64,000 nt of DNA from Chiloscyllium plagiosum (Eukaryota), in assembly GCF_004010195.1 (NCBI RefSeq), contig NC_057726.1, forward strand, positions 61,731,835 through 61,795,834, given 5' to 3'. The position numbers and the translations under genes were made by a program. Positions 4,139 to 19,000 of the stretch are shown piece by piece; positions within the stretch are counted from its first letter, which is position 1, and each line of letters begins with the position of its first letter. Below the pieces are notes generated by a model. The model saw only the letters and a list, made by a program, of their open reading frames with translations, did not search any database and was not told where the DNA came from.

Positions 4139-6928
4139 GTCAGCAGAATGTGAATCATTATTTTAGAAGTTGATGATGATGTTAACAAACGAATTCACGT
4201 TCTCCCCGATTCAATGAAGTGTTCCAAAATGAAAATTAATGCTATTGACTTTGCAATAGGTGCAGACGTTTGACGAGGTGGTGAATTTGTCAAGAGAGAA
4301 GATCGTGGGACACTTTTTTAAAAAGCTATCCGAAAAAGTACTCAACATTGAAAAAGGAAACGTTGTGATTATTGTTGACTTTTTAAAAATTTAACGTCAA
4401 TGTCCATCATGGTTGCGAAAAATCACTAACATATACTGACTGCATTCTGTTAGCTTTTGTAAGGGAATTTTTGTCTTGAAATCCAAATCATGCCGATGGA
4501 GTGTATTGAATCAACTACAACAATATTGCTGGAAACAAAAATGTAACAGCGAACGCATTATCAAGAATGTGATTGAGATGAAATAGTTTAAGAGTTTGGA
4601 AAGTAGATGAAAATACGTTGCTTAAGTTATGTGTAAGGAATGGGTGAGCGTGAATGAATGTAATTTTATTGTGTTGTTTTGTGTCTGTGCTACATTTATC
4701 TGACTTCGTTCCATCAAGAGGATGAAAAATGAATTGCGTTCAATTTTGCCAAGGGGCCTTTGATGATTTAAAAAAGTTGGAATCATCACAGACTGTATCA
4801 ATTCAAGGAAGATAACCATTGTGATTTTCTTGATGACAAAGATAATTTACACATTCATTTTGCATCACAAAATGGAATTAAACAAAAAAAACTCCATTGA
4901 TTTTACTTAGAGAATGAGAAATCTGTGACAGCCTGAGTTGCACATCAATGTAGTTTTGAACCCATTTGGGCCAATGGGGTCCGGTAGAACATTAAATATG
5001 GCAGAGGCTGGGTGTCGCTTAGAAATTGAGAATCCGGGTAGTCTTCATCAGAACAAATGAGCGGATCATTACTGAACAACAAATGTTAACTTCGCGTTCT
5101 TCTCACAGATGCTGCCAGACCTGCTGAGGTTTGACAGCAATTTCCGTTTTTGTTACAGATCTCCAGCATCTATGGTTCTTTGTTTGATTTATTTAACCAG
5201 GACTGCTCTGGACAGGTGTTTCTTTTTTTTAACCAACTTGCGTTAAAAATGATGCATGCAACTATAACTTACGATATATTGTCTGTTCCAGGTTTTTGTT
5301 ATCTCGAGAGCTCTTTGTATAGATAACGACTAGAAAAGATTGAAGGATTCTGTAAATATTTGGAATGATGGCAAGCATGGCTTAAGTTTAGATCTTGTGC
5401 CCTGCAGCAAGACATTACAGGTCGCTGGCTGTAGCTTTGAGAAGCCACAAGATGTGATAGATGGCGGCTTACACCCTTTAATTCCTGTTGCCCACCCCTC
5501 ACTCCTGCAAACCACTCACCCTGCTAGGTAAACAGGCCTTCTCGCTTTGACGTAAAGAATTGATGCATGCAGACTTATGGAATTTCAAAAACAGTGGACC
5601 TATCACCACCACCTACCAAAATGCCCCATAATGTTGTCTCTGAACACATATCGCATACCCCCACCCCCATTTTATTGGTACCAATATACTACCAGAAAGC
5701 AGGTCAGAATTTATATCTTGTTTATAGAGGAACGTCAACGGTATTTTGACCAATCAAATGTTTGAACACAATTAAAAAATTGTTGACTCGCTGTCTCTAA
5801 ATTCCTGTAAAGTTTGTGGAGGATGAACCTGGGCACGTGCCTTGTTCCTGAAGTCTCTGAACCATTTTCTGTTCTCAAACGTTTATTAGACGTTAAAGAA
5901 ATTGAACTGCAAAGCTGAAACCATTGGTGTATCTTTGTAGCTCTGCTCCATTCTGCAAAAGTGCTTCTTAACAGAAGCCTTGTCGAACTCAGCACACTGA
6001 CCCATGCTACACCGTTAAATGAAAACTGCTCAAATCTGGACGACAGCCAGACGGATATCGGCCAGAATTCATATTGACACTATTGGATCTCTGGGATTGG
6101 GCTCAAACTGGAAATCTTCTTGAGCAACAAAAACTAAATTGTTTCTGTTTTTCAGTAGGTTATTTCTCCAACTCACTCCACCTTTTGTAGTAGAGGTTTG
6201 ATTTAAAATAATGCTTGGGGACCATATTTCATTTTCTATTTCGCTTTTGATACAATTTGATTTACTTTTTTTTTTGACAGTGGAATAGTCGTTTGGCTTC
6301 TATTGCATTTTAGGAATGTTTTCGCCTTAAGGGGAGAACTTGTTTATATCCCCGTGCCTCTTAGTTTTGGATGCTTTTCTATTGAAAACGTTGGACATTC
6401 AACTCGAATAACTAAAGAAACGGTTTTGACACAAGTTGTGCAGTTTTGGATGCAGTAGCCTTTCTCTTGCCTACCTATCCTGTGACGTGGAAGACCAAAT
6501 AGTAAATCATGTTCAGTAAACGATTGCTTTTGGTCAAGCAGAACCAGTCTCCGAACGGAGTTTAAACCGTGTTTGTGAAACTGAACAAACTACCTTCAAA
6601 CTAAATGTCAATGTTGAAACACACAAACAAGTGCACATTTGAATACCAGAACACTTGGCCTGAACATAGTTTTCAACTTGCGACAAGACGAAAATGATTT
6701 CGGAAACTTTGCTATCTGCGTGGAAAGCCTCCCGACATTGAATTGTTTTTGTAATGGATTAGCCAACAATTCTTCCATGTAGCATTTCCCAATAAAACAG
6801 ATATTCCAGATAGTTGGTTCTTACCCTGACTGGAATGAATTATAATAGCGATTGGAGCACGTTTTATGATTCACAGCTAACTATTCCGGACCTACATCCA
6901 TTAATATTCCCTCAGCTTCCCAACATAT

Positions 6929-7078
6929 TTAAATTCTCAGCTTCTTGGCATTCTCTGTCACCTTTATTTCTGCATATAATGCGGAATTTTCTTGCTGTTT
7001 AGGTCTTGATGCTCTCTTGGAATCAGCTATTTGCAGAGTCGCATAAGTAAGCTTGTTATCTTCACTTCCTTGCTTGGT
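6929..7078 (-). CDS. Terminal cytoplasmic exon with ITIM LTYATL and ITIM-like ALYAEI
   Basis: Acceptor ttcctttcacag|, phase 0. Translates TKQGSEDNKLTYATLQIADSKRASRPKQQENSALYAEIKVTENAKKLRI*, stop TAA at 6931-6929. Confidence 0.9.
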   Translation of the reverse strand, partial: TKQGSEDNKLTYATLQIADSKRASRPKQQENSALYAEIKVTENAKKLRI

Positions 7079-10000
7079 CTGTGAAAGGAACATTTTTTCA
7101 CTCGTTAGACCATCGTCAATTCATTACGAGGTTTTATTCAAAAGACTTTAGTGGAATTTCCTCTCATCAGTTACAATTTGGGCTTAGTATTATTTTCTGT
7201 GTCTGATTTCTGTCCACACTAGAGCCCTGACCTCAAAATTCTTGTTATTCTGGTTTGAACTTCTCGCAAACTGCGTAAGTATATCAACATTGCCCATTTA
7301 GGCGAACTGGATATTGCTTCAATTGAAAAAGCAGCGGAATCAAATTCCAGTGTGTTAAATGTGATTGGAACGTTGATATTGCAAACATCCTTTCAAGGCC
7401 CAGTTTCCGAGCCGTAACAGCTAATGTGATCTGTTTATCCCATGGAGAGGCCTCACGTCATACGTTTCAACTACCTTTATCCCTTGACTGCTGATCTTCC
7501 GAACCCTGGGAACCACGGCAAATATAGTAGGTATTGGCTGAGATGGTCGGACCCAGCACAGTTGGAAAGTTAAACCTGGGGCCTTTCAATTCCCTAAAGT
7601 TTAATATACATTGAAGGTGTTACAATAAGTGATAAAATTGCTCGTGATCATAGTCAGTACTCTCTTTGCCTGTCTGTTCCTATTTTTCCTGAGTGGACAA
7701 GGCAGGCAGAATGGTGCTTGTTCTCAATGCTAATGTTGCCCGTATACCTGTAAACTCGATACTTGCCACTCGTATCAGCTAAGTTTAATTTGTTATAGCT
7801 CAGGACCATCATTATTATTGCTAATTCACGAAAGGAAACATAGATAACCGAGATTGTATTCTAGCCTAAAACTAATCTTAATAGCCCACTGCCGGTTGAT
7901 GGCTCCCCTGATTTGTATGGACGACCAAATCAGCAGGAGAAAAGTTGTCAAATCCCGAACAATTGCTTTATTTTGTCCTTTTTTTGCTATGGTATAAGAA
8001 TGTCAGTGACAATGTCAGTATTTGTTTCCCATCGCTATTTGCCTTGAACTGAGTGTCTTGGTAAGCCATTTCGAATAGTCGTTAAATATCAATCACGTGG
8101 CTGAGTGACTAGAGTCATATGTCAGCCAGGCCAGGTAAATAAAGGAGCAGCAGGTTTCCTTCCTGAAAGGAAATTACTAACATGCAAGCAAGGAACAAGA
8201 GCAAGCCACTCGGCCCTTCAAGCATGTGCCATCATTCAATGACGTCGTGTTTGACGTGACTGCATTCTCAACTCTACATTCCTGCATCCGCTACTCATCT
8301 TCCTGAAAGGAAATTACCAACATGCAAATAAGGAATATGAGCAAGCCACTCGGCCCTTCAAGCCTATGCCATCAGTTACTGAGGTCGTGTTTGACCTCAC
8401 TGTATTCTCAACTCTACATTCCTGCACCCGCAACTCACCTTGACTCCCCCAACGCCCCCGTCCCACCTCCCATAAACTTTCGACTGCTTAATAAACGAAA
8501 ATCTGTCTACCTGGCCTTAAAAATATTTAAAGTTTCTTCATCCACTGCCTTTTGAATAAGGCAATTCCAAAGTCTCATAACTCTATGAGAGAAACCAAAA
8601 AGAAATCTTCATCACTATTTTAAATAGACGGTCCTTTATTTTTAAACTATGACCTCTTCTCCCAAGAAAGGAAAGATCCTTTCAACGTCCAGCTGGTCAA
8701 CTCTGTCAGGATCTTAGATGTTTCAATTAAATAATCTCTGACACTTCCAAACTCCTGAGGATAGCTATTGTATAGCCTATAGTCTACAAAATGAAGCAAA
8801 AACTCAAAAATGAGGTGGGAGTAAAGAATCATGGGAAGCCAGGAAATTGTACAATATTTGAGTGAACGCTTCGCATCAGTTTTCACAGTAGACAGTAACA
8901 GCATTCCAAATTACTAAACAATCAAAGGAAAAAGGAAGAGTGGGATAAATTTAACAACTATCACTGGAGAGAAAGAAATGTCAGGGAAACTAGTAGTTCA
9001 TATAAATTAATAAGTCCCCTCGACCTGATGGGATATATCCTAGGATATCAAAACAATATCTATAGTACTGGATGAATCAGTAATAATTTTCCATAAAACC
9101 TTAGGTTCTGAAGAAAACTCCGAGAGGGCTTTAAATTTGCCAAAATAACATTTTTATTTAAAAGGGAAGGAGACAATAATAGGTAAATATAGGCCAGGCA
9201 GCTGAACATCCGTTATTGGGGAAATGTTTCAGTGTATTATAAAGGAGGCATGGTATTTCGACGTGCATGATTCTTAAGCAGAGTCAGCATGGATTCATTT
9301 AGGGGTAACCATACATTAAGTTATTTAACCAAATAAAAGCCATGGTCTTGGGGATAGTAGATTAATATGGATTGAACATTGACTTATTACTAGAAGCCTG
9401 AGATTTAGGATGGGGGCAGTGCATTTTCATAATGGAAATCTGGAACTCGTGGAGTGCCACAGGGATTAGTACTAGGGTCACAATTTTTCCAAACATGTAT
9501 ATTAAATACTTAGATACAGAAAGTGCATGCACAGTGGCTAATTTTATGTATAACATTAAAGTAGGTTGGATTGCGAGTTGTGAGAGTGACGCAGGTTTTT
9601 ACAGGGAGTTGGCAGATGGAGTATAATGTAAGAAATGTGAGGTTATGTAGTGTAGCAGGAGGAAAAGAGGTGCGTACTATTCCTTAAATGCAAGACAGCA
9701 GAAAGCTACGGAAGAGACTGATTTGGGATTCTCACGCATAAATCGCAAAAAAACTAGCACCGGGTTTTTGCAGATTTTAAAGAAGGCAAATTAAATGTTG
9801 CCCTTCATTTTAAAGGGGATGGAGTATAAAAGTAGGAATATTTGCCAAAACTAAACAAAGCACGAGTTCGAACATGGCTGGAATATTCTGAATAGTTTTG
9901 TTTCCCTTCTCTCAGAAAAAATATATTGACGTTGGAGGCACTCCAGACAAGGTTCACTGGCTGATACCGGGAATTGAGGAAATGTGTTCTGAAGTGAGGT

Positions 10001-13000
10001 TGAGTAGTCTGGGCCTGTACTCATTGAAATTTAGAAGAATTAGAGATGACCTGATTGAAACAGACAGGATTCTGAGGGGAATTGATGGGATAAATGTGGA
10101 GTTTTTTTTTTCCCATGTGAGAGAGTCTAGGACCAGACGGCATAATTTCAAAATAAGTGGTTGCATATTTAAAACAGAGATGAGGAGAAACTTCTTCTTT
10201 GCAAGGATAATGAACCTTTCCAATTATTTCCTACAAATGTTGTCTCAGTTGGGTCATTGAGAATATTTAAGCCTAAGGTAGATTTTTAGTTAGTAAAGAA
10301 AAGCATTGATGCAGAGAAGGGGCAGAAAAGTGGTTTGGAAGCTTGTCAGGTCAGTCCTGATCTCATTGGAATATGGAATGGACTCGATGGTCTAAATAAA
10401 TTGCTTATTTTTTGTTAATTTGTTCACAATATGTGAACATCACTGGCTAGGCCAGCATTCATTGTTGATCCCTAATGGCCAAGAGGGCAGTTGAGAATCA
10501 ACTACATTACTGTGGCTCTAGACTCGCATGTAGAGCAGACCAGGTTAGGATAGCAGATTTCCTTCCATTAATTCCGTTAGCAGAAACTTGTCTTATCATC
10601 ATAAGGTCACATACTGGAATCTACTCATCTCGTCATAGTCAACCTTCTCTGAGCTGCTTTAAATGTATAAATATCCTTCTATCAAAAGTATGACCAGTAA
10701 TGTACACAGTACTCCAGATGTTTTCGCACCAAAGGCTTGTACAAATATAGAAGGGAACATTTTCTTTTCGATAACAATTGATGGCAGTTAGCATGTTCAA
10801 TATTACTGAGACTAGCTTTACATTCCAAAATAATGGATTGAAATTACGTTCCATTAGTTGCTTCAGTGGGATTTGAGCCTGTGTCCTCATATTATTAACC
10901 TTTGCAATTGGATTACCATCACGCGTTCTGCTCCATGAAGTCAAAATTACAGCATACACTTCCGTTTGTACTACACTGTTTTTTGAAACTTGACTCCATT
11001 ATCACAATATTAACCTCGCATGGCTGTGACTTGACAATTCTTCCACCTTACCTCGGAATAGAGAGTGTGTTCTTCCTTCTGACTGTGTTTGGAGGGAGCT
11101 TTGTTGGCTTTCATGTTTACAATAGCAGAGGCGACGCTTTCTTCAGTTGGTCCTTGTCTAAGCTAAGAAAATAAGACATTGGTAAGCTGCAGAAGGTTCA
11201 GAAGAGATTTACCAGGATGTTGTCGCATATGTAAGTTTTGAGGTATCAAGAAAACTTGGATAGTTTTGGATTTTTTCCACTGGAACATAGGAGGTTGAGA
11301 GGTAACCTTTTACAACCTCATAAAATAGTGAAGGGTATAGATAGAAATAATAGTAGTTGCCGTTTCTCTAGGATGCGGGATTTCAGTACGAGAGGGCACA
11401 TTTTCAACGTGAGATGAGAAAGATTTTACAAAAGACAGGTGCATTTTTTTTTATTCACGTGAGGAATGAACTTCCTGAGGAAGTAGTAGATGTGCGTACA
11501 ATTACAACGTTTAAAAGATATTTTTATAAGAACATGAATAAGAAATATTTGGAGGGATATGAGCATGCAGATGGGACTAGTTTGGTTGGGATTACAATCG
11601 GCATGGACGGGTTTATATGTTCCGTGTCCCACTCCAGCCACTGTTTTTGGAAGGTGTCAAGGTCTTTGAGACGGTAAAATAGAGATTTACTGGAAGGGTC
11701 CCTAATAATCTGGGGAGAGTTTTTTATTTCTGCAGACCGTTGCAGTAGGCTGCCCACAAAGAGAGTTTGATAGAAAAAGGAATTGGATTGAAACGAGAGG
11801 ATGAAATAAATAGCGTGACAGTGGAACAAATTGACTCATTTCAAAAGGCGACAGAGACACGGGATTTTCACCCCGTGCTATGGAGTTCTATTTTCTAGGT
11901 TCTAGGACACGTAAGTGTTTTCGACTGAATATAAAATTCATTGCTATTCTTGCTATGTGTCCGGCTCCGCAACCATTTTTGTTAGGACTTTCAAGAATAA
12001 TGTTGCCCTACCCGCTCGTCATTCTGACCCTCTTCCATCGAACTCCTCCCTTTGCCTAATAGAAAGCAAAGGAATGCACCGTTAATAACACACTCCTTGT
12101 ATCATCAAATGTAATATAATCTCTTCGCTGCCAGAAACATTTACTTTATGTGGAGTACGGAAACCTACAGTTCAAAGGTGTTCAGCAACATTAATTGCAG
12201 TTTGATGTGTTTTAACAGCGCATTGCTCACATCGCGCTGCACCTAATGTTTTCGAATATGTCTCCGTATGATAGTGCAAAATGTGAGTCGATGGCCCATT
12301 TACAACATAGCATTACATTGGAAATAAAATCTAAGAATTTGCATATCTGGTTGTCAGTTCTAAAACACCCACTTTAATGCTGAAAGTTAAAATCCACTTA
12401 ATAAAATTTCCTGTTTAAGAACTAGGCCTGCACTGAACAATAATTGAGAACAATCGTAATTTCGATTGGAGCAATATGGGCATGAATAAACCGGGTGAAT
12501 AGTTCGAATAACAAGGTTAAATATTTGGATTTCAAATCCTCGTTAGATTCTCATCGCCACCATTTAAAGACATAGCCCTTGATGTCTCAACTACTCTTCA
12601 TGCTTTCCCACTGGATCTAAGTAAATACATATTCTGCGAAATAAGAAAGATTCTTACCAGCCGATGCCTTTAATTTGAGTTTCACGAAATATATTATGAA
12701 TAGCAACATTGCCAATGCCCCTCCTGCACATCCAAATATCGTCGGAAGATGGATACCTTCATATACAGGATGAAAACATGATGGAAGTCAACACGTGTGG
12801 AACACAGATAGTTACATGCGGAGAACATCATGCGCACGATGATAAATTGCAAAGACGTATCCCAGGAAAACCCGCTGTCAGTAAAGGCGGAACGTTTTAA
12901 TTTCGGTGGGAATAGCTCTGCAAGGGCTTTACTGTGTATCTGAGGACGTCACCTGCAGTTCAGCATTTTATGGAGAATGCATACATTTCATGACTTAAAG

Positions 13001-16000
13001 GCACGGGAAACTTCTCGCTGTATCGGAGGATTGCTTGCTTTGAGTAAAGGAGTTTGCATTTATTTGCTCATGGTCTTAAACCAGACTGACGCACAACAGC
13101 TGCAAGATCTGGCAACGTTTTCAATTCCTAATCGCGGCATAAAGGAAGATAAACAACAGGAACAGGGTGTGGACATTACGACCTTCAAGCATGCTCGACC
13201 ATTCAACTATAAAATGGCTGAACGTCCTCAGCAGTATTTTCTCGCACTGGCTTGATATCATCAAACATCTGGGACATTGTTGATCTCAATATTTCATAAT
13301 CTTAATGACAGAGTTTTCCCAACATTCTCAGGATGCGGGGGTGAGGGGGGTGGGTGGGAAATGTAGTGCAATTCCCAAGACTCTGGTTGAAGACATTCCT
13401 CTTCACTTCAGTCCGAAATGACCAGCGCCTCCCGCTCACCACCCCCCCCCCCCCCCCCCACAAACCTCCAACAATCCACCACCATTGTGGAATCCGCCAG
13501 GGAAAATAACCTTTCTTCATTTAACCTATCGAGACTTGTAAGGATTTTGCATGTTTTGTGACACCCTTCACCAGCCTTCCACAGATAACACCGACGACAA
13601 TTTTTGTTATATATAATAAGAACAACTTGCAATTTGCTGAGTCTTTAACAGGACTAAAATACTTGTAAGTCACTTCGCAGAGCATTACCAGTCAAACATA
13701 AGTGATCTTAGGACAGAGAGAAATAAGGATAAAGAACCGCCTTAAAGAAGGATCGGCGCAGTGGGAGACTGAGAGGCCGGACTTTTCCAAGTTTATGGTA
13801 CAGGCAACTGAAGACGTTGTTGGTGAAGATTAGCTGAATAGGATAAAGGATATGCATGAACAAGTTGTATCTGCACATTCATTTCATTTAACAAAAAATA
13901 ATTGTGGAGTTTTCAACGTTTGCGTAGTTTTCGCAACAATTCCCATTTCAGTTTATTTTGGGGATCTATTCGCCTTCCTGCACCTGCAAGCTATCTTCCA
14001 ATATTTTACTTTGTTTCCATTTTTGTGGCATTGAGAATGAATACCGGTCACATTTACGCGATATGTTCGAGTAATCTTAGTCCAATGCCTTAAAAATACA
14101 GATATAAGGTCAGCCCCACCCATCACACCCCCAACTCCCTGTTGGGAATATTTTCAATCTTACCTCGATTAACAGTGTAGCTGACGCTGGCGAGCTCTTC
14201 AAGACAGTTATGAGATGCCTGGCAGGTATAAACTGCACCGCTCTGCACAGGCTGCGCTTCTTCCAACGAGCTAGTAACCTCATAGAGCCCATCCAAAGTC
14301 TTGTTTTTCACAGTTTGTATTCGGGCCTGAATTTCGACGCCATTTCTTAGCCAGGAGATTCTTAAATCCTCCGGGTAAAAGGCTGTAGTTTTACATTCGA
14401 ATTTCCAATAATTCCCTGAAATCCCTTCCACGGCAACGATTTTCTGGAGTGTTGGGGAGACTACAACAGAAATTAAAACATTTTTTAAAAAATCAGCTTA
14501 CATTCTTTTTTTCCCCATCCTCCAGAATGCACCTTTCCTCGCCCCATGTTATGCTGCTCCATTCCGAGTGCGTCAATTGTGTTCATTGTTATCCTATTTT
14601 AAACTTGCTTTTTGCATTTATTTTTAAAAGTGCAGGGCAAAACGTTGGTATGTTTTTCAATTTGTTTACAGCGCGGTTGAACATGGGGAAGAAAATCTTT
14701 TATAAAATGCAAGTCTTACATAATCCTAGAGGTTTACCCTTCTGTAAGTGAATTCGATTTGTTCAACATGTTTTTTCCCCTTGGATGAGATTGTGGCTGG
14801 AGTGAGTTAAGAATTAGGAGCTGAAGCAGACCGTTCCAATGGGAAGGTCTTTGGACCCTTTGAGCCTGATCCAACAGTTGATAAGATCATGTCTGTGTCG
14901 TTTGTGTTTCTGATTCATATGCCCGTCTTCGCCTGAATCCCCCCGAAAATATCAATTCTACATTAACAGTTTACTAAAGCGAACGTGTGCTCTCTCGATC
15001 TGCAATCAGTGCTTAGCTGGAAGTAAAGTTACTAGATTTGTATTGTCCTGCTGTTTATTACAATCAATATCGGTAACATCTGACCTCTGTCTCCTGATGG
15101 TTCTCGAATTTCAATATGAGGGAATTTTTAAATGAGATTTCTTATTCACTTCCAAATTCATGCTAGCTTTTACTGCGAGCAAAGGCTGAGAATTCTGACA
15201 TTTTCCCCAGGGATAGGCTTCAAACAGCACATAATTCCCGTGGAGAAAATTAATAGTATTATTTTGATCTCCTGTCCTTAGGTCTTGTTGCAACGAAATA
15301 ATACATTATAAGCACGAGCGCAAAGTTTAAAAAAAATCTGTTTGGTTCAGTCCTTGCTGCACTTCGTGCCTGCATCAGAGAAAGTTCAGTTGGCGAGCTA
15401 CAGAGGTCCAAACAGAGGCAATGGGTAACTTCACTGTCCTGTAAACTTAAGAACTGGGGATCAACCAGGCTGAACAGTTGTTATCTCACTGTATCACGTG
15501 ATTCGCTTGTTTAAACAAATTGACATTTCAAGCATGTTAGCATTGGAAAAATGTGCAGCTAAACGCGAGGCAATTCTGACCTTGAATTTCTCTCATTAAT
15601 AGAATCATAGAATCCCTGCAGTATGGAAGCAGGCCATTCTGCCCATCGGGTCCACACCACCACAACTTACTCTGCTGCTCACTTAAGTTATGGTTGAATT
15701 GTATCTCAGTTCCGTTTGTCCAGTTTTATTCTAATACGTTGATTCCCAGCACTAATTTCCCTCGACATCCATCTCAGAGTTTGAACAATTCAGTACAATT
15801 CGAAAAGTTATACGATTTGAATTAACACTGAATGTATATTATGGGTGCTGATTACATGGTCTTCATAAATTTGTATAAAGAAATGATGTAGGAGTTGTCA
15901 ACATTATTCTGATGAAAGATTATGACCTTAAACATTAATTATGCTTTGATTATCAGTAAGTCCAAGGGTATCAGGTGGAGAGGAAAGTGCAGTTGAAACC

Positions 16001-19000
16001 ATAGTCAGACAGCCAAAATTTTATTGAGTGACTGAGTGAACTGGAGGGACGAATGGCCTACTCTAGCTTCTAATTCTCATGCTTGTATTACCTCTGCAGA
16101 AGCTCTGACACGTTTCAAGTAACCTTTATTAATATTTCACGTTTCCAATACCCGCACTAGTCTGTTTTTGTAATAACATCATGTCCATTGTTGTATTTTA
16201 GTACTTTAGTAAGAGGTAGACCGAACATCTTAACTCGTGACACAAGAACAGAACCGTCCTGAAGAAGGATCATTGGACTCTGAACGTTAGCTCACACAGA
16301 TGCTGCCAGACCTGCGGCGTTTTTCCGGCAATTTCTATCTTTGTTTCAGATTTCCAGCATCCGCAGTTCTTCGTTCTATCTTATTCCATGAAGTAATTTC
16401 GTCCCAAGATTTAATTAGTCATCCTGTTTCACTATTTTGGCGCAATGTCAACTATTTTTGCAACAGAAAGTCACTCGTTGGATTAACAGCACTGTGCTGT
16501 GTCATGATCAATACGGGCGATGGAATTGATCGTGAGAAATGCCGTTTAACGGGCGAAAGCGAATCAACAACCGTTGTACAGCGAGGTCAACAGAAAAATA
16601 GATGCCCCGGACAGTGCGAAGCGAATACGCTGTTGCTGGATTTTCCTCTTATTGTAAAGCCTCAGATCACATAAATTGCACAAAACAACTGAAGATTGCC
16701 TGCCCCTGGTAAAGTGTCACTTACCACACACAGTCAGCAACGAGCCACTTCCAGCTCCAATGATGGTTTGCTGACGCCTGAGTTTGCAAAAATACATTCC
16801 GGAGTCTGCAATAGTGACATTGAGAACATGAAGTGAGCTCCGTCCTTTCTCGACATGTATTGGCTTTCTGCTGTCCGGTTCTAGAAGCGATTCCTCATTA
16901 CGTCGCCACCAAAATATTTCAGGAACGTCTTGAAATATGGGAAAAGTGCAGAACATGGAAACATTGTCACCTCTGGCCGCTTTCAATTGTTTGGGAAACT
17001 GATCCACTTTGCTCGAGGTTACTTTAGTGACTATTAAAAAAGAACAGAAACCGTGACACTAGTTGTAGAAGCAGAGAAGGTAAAACAACAGAGTAAAATA
17101 CAAGAACAGTGAAGAATGATCACGCACATCGAATTGGGGAACCAGAATATCGAACTTTGCAGGGCATAGTAACTGTAAACATCAAATGCAATCAAAGTTA
17201 TTCTAAAAGGACAGCTCATAATATTTAAGGGTCACAAAAGTGCCAAGGCATACCCAGAAGAGCCATGAACAGAACCGCTACTCTCGCCGACATATTGCTG
17301 ATATGGAAACAGAGTTGGCTCCTTGCTGTAAATGAGGGTAGTACTTTGAATGGTTGGGGGTGGGAGGAAGGGGAAGTGGGTGTCAAAGATAAGAATAGTA
17401 AACGTGAGAGCATGTCATGAGATATCACTTGACTACTGCAGCGTACTGGATGTAATTGTACTTCTCTGTGGGAATTTGTTAGGTTGGAGGTCCATTCCAA
17501 ACCCCCTGCGAGAGAATTAACCAAAGGGGGAAAAAAGTAGTTGATCTCATCCTTATCAATCTGCCGGCTGCAGATGAATCTGTCCATGACAATATTGCTA
17601 CGAGTGAGCACTGCACTGTCCTTGTGGAGACATTGTCCCACTTACAAATTGAGAATACCCTCCATCGTGTTGTGTGGTACAATTCACTGTGCTACATTGG
17701 ACAGATTTAAAACCGATCTAACAGCTTAAGAATGGATACCCGTGAGGCGCTGTGGATAATCACCAATAGCAGAATTGTATTGCAGCATAATCTACAACCT
17801 AATGGCCCGGCATTTCCCTCGCTCAGCAATTAAGATTAAGCCAGGGGGCTGACACTAGTTCAAAGGAGAATGCAGGAGCACATGCTAGGAGCAATACCCA
17901 GAAAATCCCAGATGGCCCCCTTCTTCAATAATTGCAATTTCCCCTCCTATGTGGTCGCCAATGCCCTCCAGCACAACTCTTCCATTTCACTAACCTCTGC
18001 CCTTTAACAGCAGCCCTCTCAACCCCCCGGTCCTTACCTTCCACCCAACCAACCTGGTCAGATACAACCCCCCCCCCCCGCCCTCCACCAGCCCACACCC
18101 TACTCCCAGCACCTTCCCCTGCCACTGCACGATGTGCAAAACCTGAGCCCACAACTTCCCACTCACCTCCACCCAAGGACTCTGAGGATCCTTCGTCATT
18201 CGAAAGCCATTTACCTGCTCCACTCACACCACACTCCCCACCCACACCACACTCACCACCCACTCCACTCACACCACACTCCCCACCCACACCACACTCC
18301 CCACCCACACCACACGCCCCACTCACTCCACACTCCCCACTCACTTCACACTCCCTAACCACACCACACTCCTCACCCACCCCACCCACACCACACTCCC
18401 CACCCACCCCACTCCCAGCACCTTCCCCTGCCACTGCACGATGTGCAAAACCTGAGCCCACAACTTCCCACTCACCTCCACCCAAGGACTCTGAGGATCC
18501 TTCGTCATTCGAAAGCCATTTACCTGCTCCTTCCCCAATGATATTTACTGCATCCATTGCACCTGATGTCATATCTTCTACGTCTGGGAGACAGGATGCT
18601 AACTTGCAGATAATTTTAGAGAACAACCCCACCTCCCCATAGCTGAATACTTCAACTCTCCCTCCCACCCCACCAAGGACGTGCAGGTCCTGGACCTCCA
18701 CCATTACCAAACCCTTACTACCCGATGCCTGGAGGAAGAATGCCTCAAATTTCGCCTTGGGATCCTGCAACCACATGGGATCAATATGGATTTCACCAGT
18801 TTCGTCATTGCCCCTCCCTCCACATTATCCCAGTCCCGAGCCTCCAACTTAGCAAAGCCCTCTTGACATGTGCATCCCCTTTCTGATATGTCTGCTCTAT
18901 CCTCCTCTCCTACCTATCACATTCTCAGCTACCTTCCCCCAACCCCTCTCCCATTTACATCTTGCAACCACTCCCCAGCCAGCAAGTCTCATTCCTGATG

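What the first reader, a model, noticed from the sequence alone, without database searches (positions are those of the whole stretch)
6929..11162. Signalling tail built by exon duplication; the first copy has lost its ITIM
Seen: exon 11162-11052 (LRQGPTEESVASAIVNMKANKAPSKHSQKEEHTLYSE) aligns without gaps to the first 37 aa of the last exon (TKQGSEDNKLTYATLQIADSKRASRPKQQENSALYAE), with 10/37 identical and both starting in phase 0. The ITIM LTYATL aligns to VASAIV, where the Ser codon TCT is one base from Tyr TAT. The second motif becomes TLYSE|T across the splice, lacking the hydrophobic Y+3 residue. Inference: an ancestral four-tyrosine, SIRPalpha-like tail has been tuned down to two canonical motifs. 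The symmetric 0/0 exon could also be skipped.
Basis: partly seen in the sequence, partly recalled or inferred. Interest (0 to 1): 0.7.

Follow-up and report, generated by a model that had tools for sequence, protein, structure and literature searches.

The report
Shark receptor with eroded repeat tail
This shark immune-receptor gene has a signalling tail built from repeated 37-amino-acid exons, and where three related shark receptors keep three repeats with six tyrosines, this one has lost one tyrosine and one whole repeat, which likely leaves a weaker inhibitory receptor, an ordinary fate in such gene families.

Summary
Observation confirmed. Exon 11162-11052 and last exon 7078-6929 are homologous (10/37 aa, 51/111 nt; 1 of 100,000 shuffles). 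They end a 348-aa leader-VJ-C1-TM receptor, one of at least 49 related V exons in this genome. The first ITIM tyrosine was lost: 8 of 11 closest gene models in other sharks and rays have Tyr there; 4 of 4 copies here have TCT. Three corrections. (1) The ancestor had three units, not two: horn shark and two catsharks keep three units with six tyrosines, and this window holds the dead middle exon (7747-7644, frameshifted, donor GT to GA). (2) Thr at Y+3 across the splice is the family norm (9 of 16), not decay, and fits the published SAP preference. (3) The duplication is ancient (both unit types in chimaera) and SIRP membership is not shown. The eroded exon evolves near neutrally (dN/dS about 1.3 on few changes). 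No RNA read covered an exon, so splicing and skipping are untested. Ordinary motif turnover in a paired-receptor family; the family itself is the more interesting part.

The parts
17254..17293 (-). Leader exon (ATG at 17293, phase 1 donor)
   Evidence: conserved in paralogues and in P0152, P0198
16725..17030 (-). Ig V exon with a J-like end (GAGSGSLLTV) in the same exon
   Evidence: Pfam V-set E 2e-9; 49 matches in G000
14164..14460 (-). Ig C1 exon
   Evidence: Pfam C1-set E 5.9e-11; PDB hits UrIg2, IgH, SIRP
12658..12756 (-). Transmembrane exon, uncharged helix, 99 nt, phase 1/1, weak acceptor
   Evidence: tblastn to paralogues
12012..12055 (-). Short juxtamembrane exon, phase 1/0
   Evidence: 75% nucleotide match in the paralogue
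11052..11162 (-). Tail unit 1 (37 aa, phase 0/0): first Tyr replaced by Ser, second Tyr kept (TLYSE|T)
11127..11129 (-). TCT (Ser) codon at the position of the ancestral ITIM tyrosine
   Evidence: TCT in 4 of 4 copies in G000; Tyr in 8 of 11 closest models of other species
11010..11051 (-). Intron start; read through, it gives TLYSEV (ITSM consensus) and a stop 13 codons later. Use not shown
   Evidence: first AATAAA downstream only at 9158
7644..7747 (-). Decayed middle tail unit (unit 2): 104 nt, out of frame, donor GT changed to GA
   Evidence: open 108-nt AG..GT copy in the paralogue matches horn shark unit 2 (0 of 10,000 shuffles) and catshark unit 2 (E 9e-7)
6929..7078 (-). Last exon, tail unit 3: ITIM LTYATL (7051-7034) and ITIM-like ALYAEI (6982-6965), stop at 6929
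   Evidence: dN/dS about 0.33

Best explanation
The gene encodes a predicted VJ-C1 transmembrane receptor whose tail is a chain of homologous 37-aa exons, and it likely descends from a three-unit, six-tyrosine ancestor by losing the unit-1 ITIM tyrosine and the whole of unit 2, leaving a likely inhibitory receptor that signals through its last exon. Shown: homology of the units, the Ser codon, Tyr in relatives, the dead middle exon, family size. Inferred: on ligand binding a Src-family kinase phosphorylates LTYATL and ALYAEI (23 residues apart), which recruit the tandem SH2 domains of SHP-1, SHP-2 or SHP-2L. Unit 1 now acts mostly as a spacer under relaxed selection. Its remaining TLYSE|T may bind SAP-type adaptors rather than phosphatases, as in intact relatives. 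The Ser change predates the split between this gene and its paralogue at C17:61.60-61.62 Mb and follows the split from horn shark and catsharks.
For: Shuffle tests. Unit-to-unit scores are one-to-one with horn shark P0152: unit 1 79, unit 3 115, paralogue middle unit 56, against 49 between this gene's own two units. Unit tree separates units 1, 2 and 3 across species (unit 3 at 98/98). Ectodomain tree places the gene in a 15-row clade (96/99) with horn shark, catshark, sevengill and ray receptors. Tyr at the position in 8 of 11 closest models and in 17 of 20 hand-picked multi-unit representatives out of 72 under 520 aa. Independent losses in relatives: P0171 (AADATR), P0061, P0183, P0030; the paralogue at C17:69.93 Mb keeps both unit-1 tyrosines and has lost both terminal ones. 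Unit 1 dN 0.27 and dS 0.20, unit 3 0.13 and 0.39, V 0.11 and 0.58, C1 0.14 and 0.45; unit 1 against V+C1 Fisher p 0.005-0.02. [quoted passage not shown]
Against: No expression, splicing or binding evidence was obtained. dN/dS for unit 1 rests on about 24 changes in one pairwise comparison, and unit 1 against unit 3 is not clearly significant (p 0.05-0.19). Orthology is many-to-many and the sister group of the window's clade is weakly supported and differs between trees (85/54, 80/90). Unit 1 as a single group has weak support (36/0). No other carpet-shark tail was found, so the date of loss is broad. Ray members of the clade have two units, so three units may be a galeomorph-shark addition. 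All relatives are annotation models. The 20 tails were picked by eye.
Confidence: 0.75

Rival explanations
1. Splice-controlled switch: unit 1 is kept as a cassette whose output depends on the junction. Spliced to the last exon it gives TLYSE|T (SAP-type site plus two downstream inhibitory motifs), skipped it gives a plain two-motif tail, and read through it gives a short tail ending in a single ITSM, TLYSEV.
For: All three products are in frame. The second Tyr, Thr at -2 and a hydrophobic -1 are conserved in relatives (Thr at -2 in 12 of 16, Thr at +3 in 9 of 16). SAP prefers TIYxxV/I/L/T (PMC12084948, passage); an sh2d1a-like gene is expressed in bamboo shark T cells (PMC11372145, passage). 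Horn shark isoform P0167 lacks exactly this 37-aa unit relative to P0166.
Against: Any phase-0 GT donor reads as Val, so the read-through ITSM is no evidence by itself. No AATAAA or ATTAAA until about 1.85 kb past the read-through stop. Two of the four copies here have also lost the second Tyr (TVNSQ, TVHSQ), one of them in a tail with a stop in its last exon. The exon as a whole looks neutral.
Confidence: 0.15
2. The gene, or its tail, is decaying and is not a working inhibitory receptor; the lost tyrosine and exon are early steps of pseudogenisation seen in neighbours.
For: Several neighbouring paralogues have stops or frameshifts in tail exons (C17:61.611, 61.533, 61.678, 61.703, 61.799 Mb). 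Unit 1 looks neutral and unit 2 is dead.
Against: All seven coding exons join into an uninterrupted 348-aa frame with GT-AG ends. V+C1 show purifying selection against the paralogue (p 7e-9) and unit 3 leans the same way (p 0.06).
Confidence: 0.08
3. The two exons are unrelated or only convergent on tyrosine motifs, or the last exon belongs to another gene.
For: Identity is only 27%.
Against: Significant also without the motif columns (275 of 100,000); same length, phase and Tyr spacing of 23 in most relatives; NCBI model P0001 of the paralogue joins the same exons in the same order.
Confidence: 0.02

Closest known systems
[quoted passage not shown]
   Same: Leader, V, C1, TM and 37-aa tail units; 54% identity to P0152. 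XP_043563363.1 (P0001) is encoded by the paralogue at C17:61.60-61.62 Mb and has the same Ser.
   Different: Automatic names only (the same family is also called B7-H6-like, tapasin-related or Ig-lambda-like). This gene has three tyrosines against six in P0152, P0198 and P0196.
SIRPalpha / SIRP paired receptors
   Same: V plus C1-set ectodomain; multi-tyrosine inhibitory tail (four tyrosines in SIRPalpha, PMC11374851 passage); inhibitory and charged-TM short-tail members with near-identical ectodomains (P0198 and P0188).
   Different: One C1 domain instead of two (SIRP V-C1-C1 recalled); the V exon alone found no SIRP chain at E 0.001; SIRPalpha is not the best hit of the family profile; CD47 binding untested; a recalled flanking marker is not on this contig.
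UrIg / UrIg2 and other non-rearranging VJ-C1 genes (NCR3/NKp30) of sharks
   Same: Single-exon V with a J-like end plus C1; UrIg2 is the best PDB hit of the C1 exon (E 2.8e-16).
   Different: UrIg2 has nine C1 domains, and the text has no occurrence of ITIM or SIRP (PMC12227049, abstract and passages). This family has one C1, ITIM tails and dozens of copies.
CEACAM1 paralogues in horse (loss of ITIMs by splice-site mutation and alternative splicing after gene duplication)
   Same: Duplicated inhibitory receptors lose tail motifs by dead splice donors and skipped cytoplasmic exons (PMC5856374, passages). This is the process seen here.
   Different: Unrelated family; there shown with cloned cDNAs, here only inferred from DNA.

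Membership tests
SIRP family | Ectodomain V-C1-C1 (recalled) | tested here: not met
   One V and one C1 exon before the TM exon; full-length relatives are V-C1 too. The second C1 in P0001 comes from a model spanning a tandem partial duplication.
SIRP family | SIRP as best sequence match | tested here: inconclusive
   C1: UrIg2 2.8e-16, SIRPgamma 8.4e-10, SIRPalpha 3.2e-8. Family profile: IgA1 heavy chain 2e-36, UrIg2 7e-35, SIRPalpha 1.4e-29. P0198: B7-H3, B7-H6 and SIRPalpha all 3e-10 to 5e-10.
SIRP family | Four cytoplasmic tyrosines (SIRPalpha) | tested here: not met
   Three here; six in the nearest three-unit sharks; four in two-unit relatives.
SIRP family | Synteny with NSFL1C/PDYN (markers recalled, not from a call) | tested here: inconclusive
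   SEP-domain genes on C20 and C4, none on C17; opioid-precursor hit only on C4. Loose searches; which hit is NSFL1C was not determined.
SIRP family | Binds CD47 | not testable with these tools
   No binding assay; no complex prediction run.
ITIM-bearing inhibitory receptor | (S/I/V/L)xYxx(I/V/L) in the tail, uncharged TM | tested here: met
   LTYATL; ALYAEI is ITIM-like only; TM has no charged residue (consensus).
ITIM-bearing inhibitory receptor | Phosphorylation and SHP-1/SHP-2 recruitment | not testable with these tools
   Needs pull-down or a reporter assay.
Paired receptor family | Activating-type twin: similar ectodomain, charged TM, short tail | tested here: met
   In catshark: P0188 (Arg in TM, short tail) and P0198 (three-unit tail) are sisters with branches 0.008 and 0.045. 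In G000 the one Arg-TM exon found (62.108 Mb) has a stop; only part of the cluster was read.
Non-rearranging VJ-C1 antigen-receptor-like genes | V and J-like segment in one exon, followed by C1 | tested here: met
   C...GAGSGSLLTV within exon 17030-16725; GxGT/S in relatives. Descent from the UrIg lineage not tested.
SAP-binding switch motif (SLAM type) | T-(I/V/L)-Y-x-x-(V/I/L/T) | tested here: met
   TLYSE|T fits the quoted preference TIYxxV/I/L/T with Leu at -1; it does not fit the strict ITSM TxYxxV/I; binding untested.

The most novel reading that the evidence does not exclude
Cartilaginous fish have a large, apparently undescribed family of paired non-rearranging VJ-C1 receptors whose tails are built from a 37-aa phase-0 exon cassette placed so that the splice junction supplies the Y+3 residue: Thr (SAP-type site), Ile or Val (ITSM, phosphatase site) or Val by read-through. 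Exon number, skipping and the first codon of the next exon would then set activating against inhibitory output, and this gene would be a version stripped to one SAP-type switch plus a terminal inhibitory pair.
Probability: 0.2. Interest if true: 0.62.

Novelty: new member of a known kind. Interest (0 to 1): 0.3.

Why it matters
The single loss matters little: gain and loss of ITIMs after duplication is routine in leukocyte-receptor families. What the window records well is the sequence of steps: a Tyr-to-Ser change, a dead exon with a mutated donor, and a reverse pattern in a paralogue. The wider family may matter more to comparative immunologists: at least 49 VJ-type V exons in one shark genome, inhibitory and activating-type members, relatives in chimaera, rays and sharks. 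It is a candidate for the shark counterpart of SIRP, LILR or NITR-type paired receptors, and it offers a clean test of whether SAP reads TxYxxT sites formed across splice junctions.

Tried and rejected
RNA: no RNA holder listed. Laying X5, X6, X7, X1 on 5000-17500 gave RNA-run reads only on short repeat-like patches and no exon joint; X5, X6, X7, X14 on 6700-7900 gave 0 reads (only about 2% and 6% of X5 and X6 were read). This is no test of expression, skipping or read-through. A tail-region protein search found only P0001 itself among 43 candidates, so no other carpet-shark tail was obtained; the C. punctatum hit P0016 is a fragment without tail. No unit-1 exon was detected in the paralogues at 61.50-61.55, 61.65, 61.72 and 61.81 Mb (they may be too diverged). 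The terminal-unit HMM did not detect the window's unit 1 and the mixed HMM scored it only 6.8 bits, E 0.57; its assignment rests on pairwise scores and position. Pfam finds nothing in either tail exon. P0178 as a clean skipping isoform: rejected, its ectodomain differs from the neighbouring isoforms. The read-through ITSM as evidence: rejected, because GT always reads Val in phase 0. Earlier findings near this place: none. Literature: ten searches of the open library found no description of this family or its tail exons, judged from listings and from passages of the papers opened; subscription journals are missing and PMC3709836 (B7H6/NKp30 evolution) was not held, so this is weak evidence of novelty. 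One supplement of PMC11372145 (cut when stored) lists one gene with this automatic name as a kidney tubular cell marker; whether it belongs to this family was not determined. No structure or complex prediction was run.
Full report
Gene. On the minus strand seven exons with GT-AG ends (leader 17293-17254, V 17030-16725, C1 14460-14164, TM 12756-12658, 12055-12012, 11162-11052, 7078-6929) join into a 348-aa open frame. Pfam gives V-set and C1-set for the two Ig exons and nothing for the tail exons. The V exon carries a J-like end. The window lies at G000:C17:61.73-61.80 Mb. The V exon has 49 matches in G000 among 101 scored candidates, most on C17 around 61.5-62.3 and 68.9-70.7 Mb. [quoted passage not shown]

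Observation. The two exons align without gaps at 10 of 37 aa and 51 of 111 nt. The ungapped score is reached by 1 of 100,000 shuffles, the local score by 3 of 20,000, and the score without motif columns by 275 of 100,000. Codon 12 is TCT against TAT. The skipped form is in frame.

Was there a tyrosine? A search of 1.84 billion representatives with P0001 and a profile search returned relatives from chimaera, sevengill, horn shark, catsharks, smooth-hound, sawfish, skate and rays (names). An ectodomain tree of 26 rows, built without the tail, puts the gene in a 15-row clade with support 96/99 (a 64-row tree gave a matching clade at 100/98). Among the 11 closest gene models of other species that have unit 1, eight have Tyr at the position (P0152, P0174, P0198, P0196, P0007, P0156, P0182, P0180) and three do not (P0171, P0061, P0183) (P0196 and P0061 lack part of the ectodomain and were placed by tail similarity). 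More widely, 17 of 20 multi-unit tails, picked by eye from the 72 representatives under 520 aa, have it. All 4 unit-1 copies found in G000 near this gene's clade have TCT. So the loss is real, happened once before this gene and its paralogue separated, and has parallels: other residues replace the Tyr in P0171, P0061, P0030 and P0183, and the paralogue at 69.93 Mb shows the reverse, both tyrosines kept in the internal unit and both lost in the terminal one.

Three units, not two. Horn shark P0152 and catshark P0198 and P0196 have three units with six tyrosines. Their units match one-to-one: window unit 1 to unit 1 (79), window last exon to unit 3 (115). About 0.9 kb before its last exon the paralogue has an open 108-nt AG..GT segment that matches horn shark unit 2 (score 56, 0 of 10,000 shuffles) and catshark unit 2 (E 9e-7); model P0001 does not include it. 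The homologous stretch in the window is 7747-7644 (blastn E 5e-9 and 3e-31 including flanks): 104 nt, out of frame, followed by GA instead of GT. The tail therefore went from six tyrosines to three. A 25-row tree of the units groups them by position across species, chimaera included (unit 3 98/98, unit 2 93/95, unit 1 only 36/0), so the first duplication likely predates the chimaera-shark split. Rays of the same clade have two units, so the middle unit is either a galeomorph addition or was lost in rays.

The second motif. In relatives with intact first ITIMs the same junction usually gives Thr: of 16 tails with the second Tyr, +3 is Thr in 9, Ile in 4, Val, Ala and Asn in one each, and -2 is Thr in 12. 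The +3 residue is the first codon of the next exon. A review gives SAP's preference as TIYxxV/I/L/T (PMC12084948, passage), and an sh2d1a-like gene is expressed in bamboo shark T cells (PMC11372145, passage). A SAP-type role is a lead, untested. Read-through of the donor gives TLYSEV and a stop 13 codons on; terminal units have Val or Ile at that position in 6 of 6 copies, which fits a donor formed at the old Val codon (inference), but any phase-0 donor reads Val. Of the terminal motifs, LTYATL is a canonical ITIM and ALYAEI is ITIM-like only (consensus in PMC12151841, passages).

Selection. Against the paralogue, dN/dS is about 0.2 for V, 0.3 for C1, 0.33 for the last exon and 1.3 for unit 1. 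Unit 1 is indistinguishable from neutral (p 1.0), differs from V+C1 (p 0.005-0.02) and not clearly from unit 3 (p 0.05-0.19). Length, frame and splice sites are kept in 4 of 4 copies, but two have also lost the second Tyr. Relaxation explains this more simply than tuning; the counts are small.

Splicing. No RNA evidence was obtained. An annotated horn shark isoform lacks exactly the 37-aa unit 1 (P0167 321 aa against P0166 358 aa), which shows that skipping is at least modelled in the family.

Mechanism. Most likely an inhibitory receptor: ligand binding by the V domain, phosphorylation of the two terminal tyrosines 23 residues apart, recruitment of SHP-1, SHP-2 or SHP-2L (inferred from established ITIM biology). 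It would be weaker or less multivalent than the six-tyrosine relatives. The family is paired: catshark P0188 (Arg in the TM, short tail) and P0198 have almost the same ectodomain.

Comparison. It works like SIRPalpha and other ITIM paired receptors, but membership of the SIRP family is not shown: one C1, no clear best hit among SIRP, B7-H6, B7-H3, UrIg2 and Ig chains, and a recalled synteny marker is on other contigs. Loss of ITIMs through dead donors and skipped exons after duplication is documented for horse CEACAM1 paralogues (PMC5856374, passages). Ten searches of the open library found no account of this shark family; subscription journals are not covered. Papers seen: PMC12227049 abstract, outline and passages; PMC10751288, PMC12084948, PMC11374851, PMC5856374, PMC12151841 passages; PMC11372145 one passage and supplement searches; the rest as listings only.

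Verdict. Real, correctly seen, with a history more eroded and older than proposed, and of an ordinary kind. Interest 0.3. The junction-coded Y+3 cassette and the family itself are the parts worth following.

Noticed in passing
G000:C17:61.5-62.3 Mb and 68.9-70.7 Mb: At least 49 related VJ-type V exons, many with C1, TM and tail exons, several with stops: a large birth-and-death cluster for which I found no description in ten open-library searches.
   Followed up: partly
G000:C17:61,813,077-61,798,773 (L063, L064): Near-identical copy of the leader, V (95%) and C1 (94%) of the window gene, followed only by a different TM type and a decayed last exon; possible recent duplicate or soluble decoy.
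   Followed up: partly
window 12756-12658: The TM exon is 99 nt, phase 1/1, with a weak acceptor; NCBI models P0001, P0173 and P0002 lack the TM exon, so TM-less isoforms may exist in the family.
   Followed up: no
G000:C17:69,931,506-69,930,507 (L065): Paralogue with the reverse pattern: internal unit keeps LTYPAL and TMYAE, terminal unit has lost both tyrosines; its horn shark sister P0030 has instead lost the first tyrosine of the internal unit.
   Followed up: yes
G000:C17:62,107,809-62,107,922 (L085): Arg-containing, activating-type TM exon like those of catshark P0188 and sevengill P0189, with an in-frame stop; the V exon at 62.098 Mb also has a stop.
   Followed up: partly
window 35366-35132 and 56294-56102 (minus strand): Decayed V- and C1-like remnants with stops and frameshifts (tblastn E 0.001-0.2), probably relics of further family members.
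   Followed up: partly
G000:C17:61,596,000-61,622,300: The paralogue has a tandem partial duplication (C1-TM-tail twice, one copy with a stop in the last exon) and a doubled leader exon; NCBI model P0001 joins the two into a V-C1-C1 protein without TM, probably an annotation artefact.
   Followed up: partly
P0171/P0197 (horn shark): V domain unlike that of its neighbours attached to a C1 and tail of the window gene's clade, with both unit-1 and unit-2 first tyrosines lost: possible exon shuffling.
   Followed up: no
window 8441-8159: Tandem 140-bp direct repeat (88% identical) in the intron before the dead middle exon.
   Followed up: no
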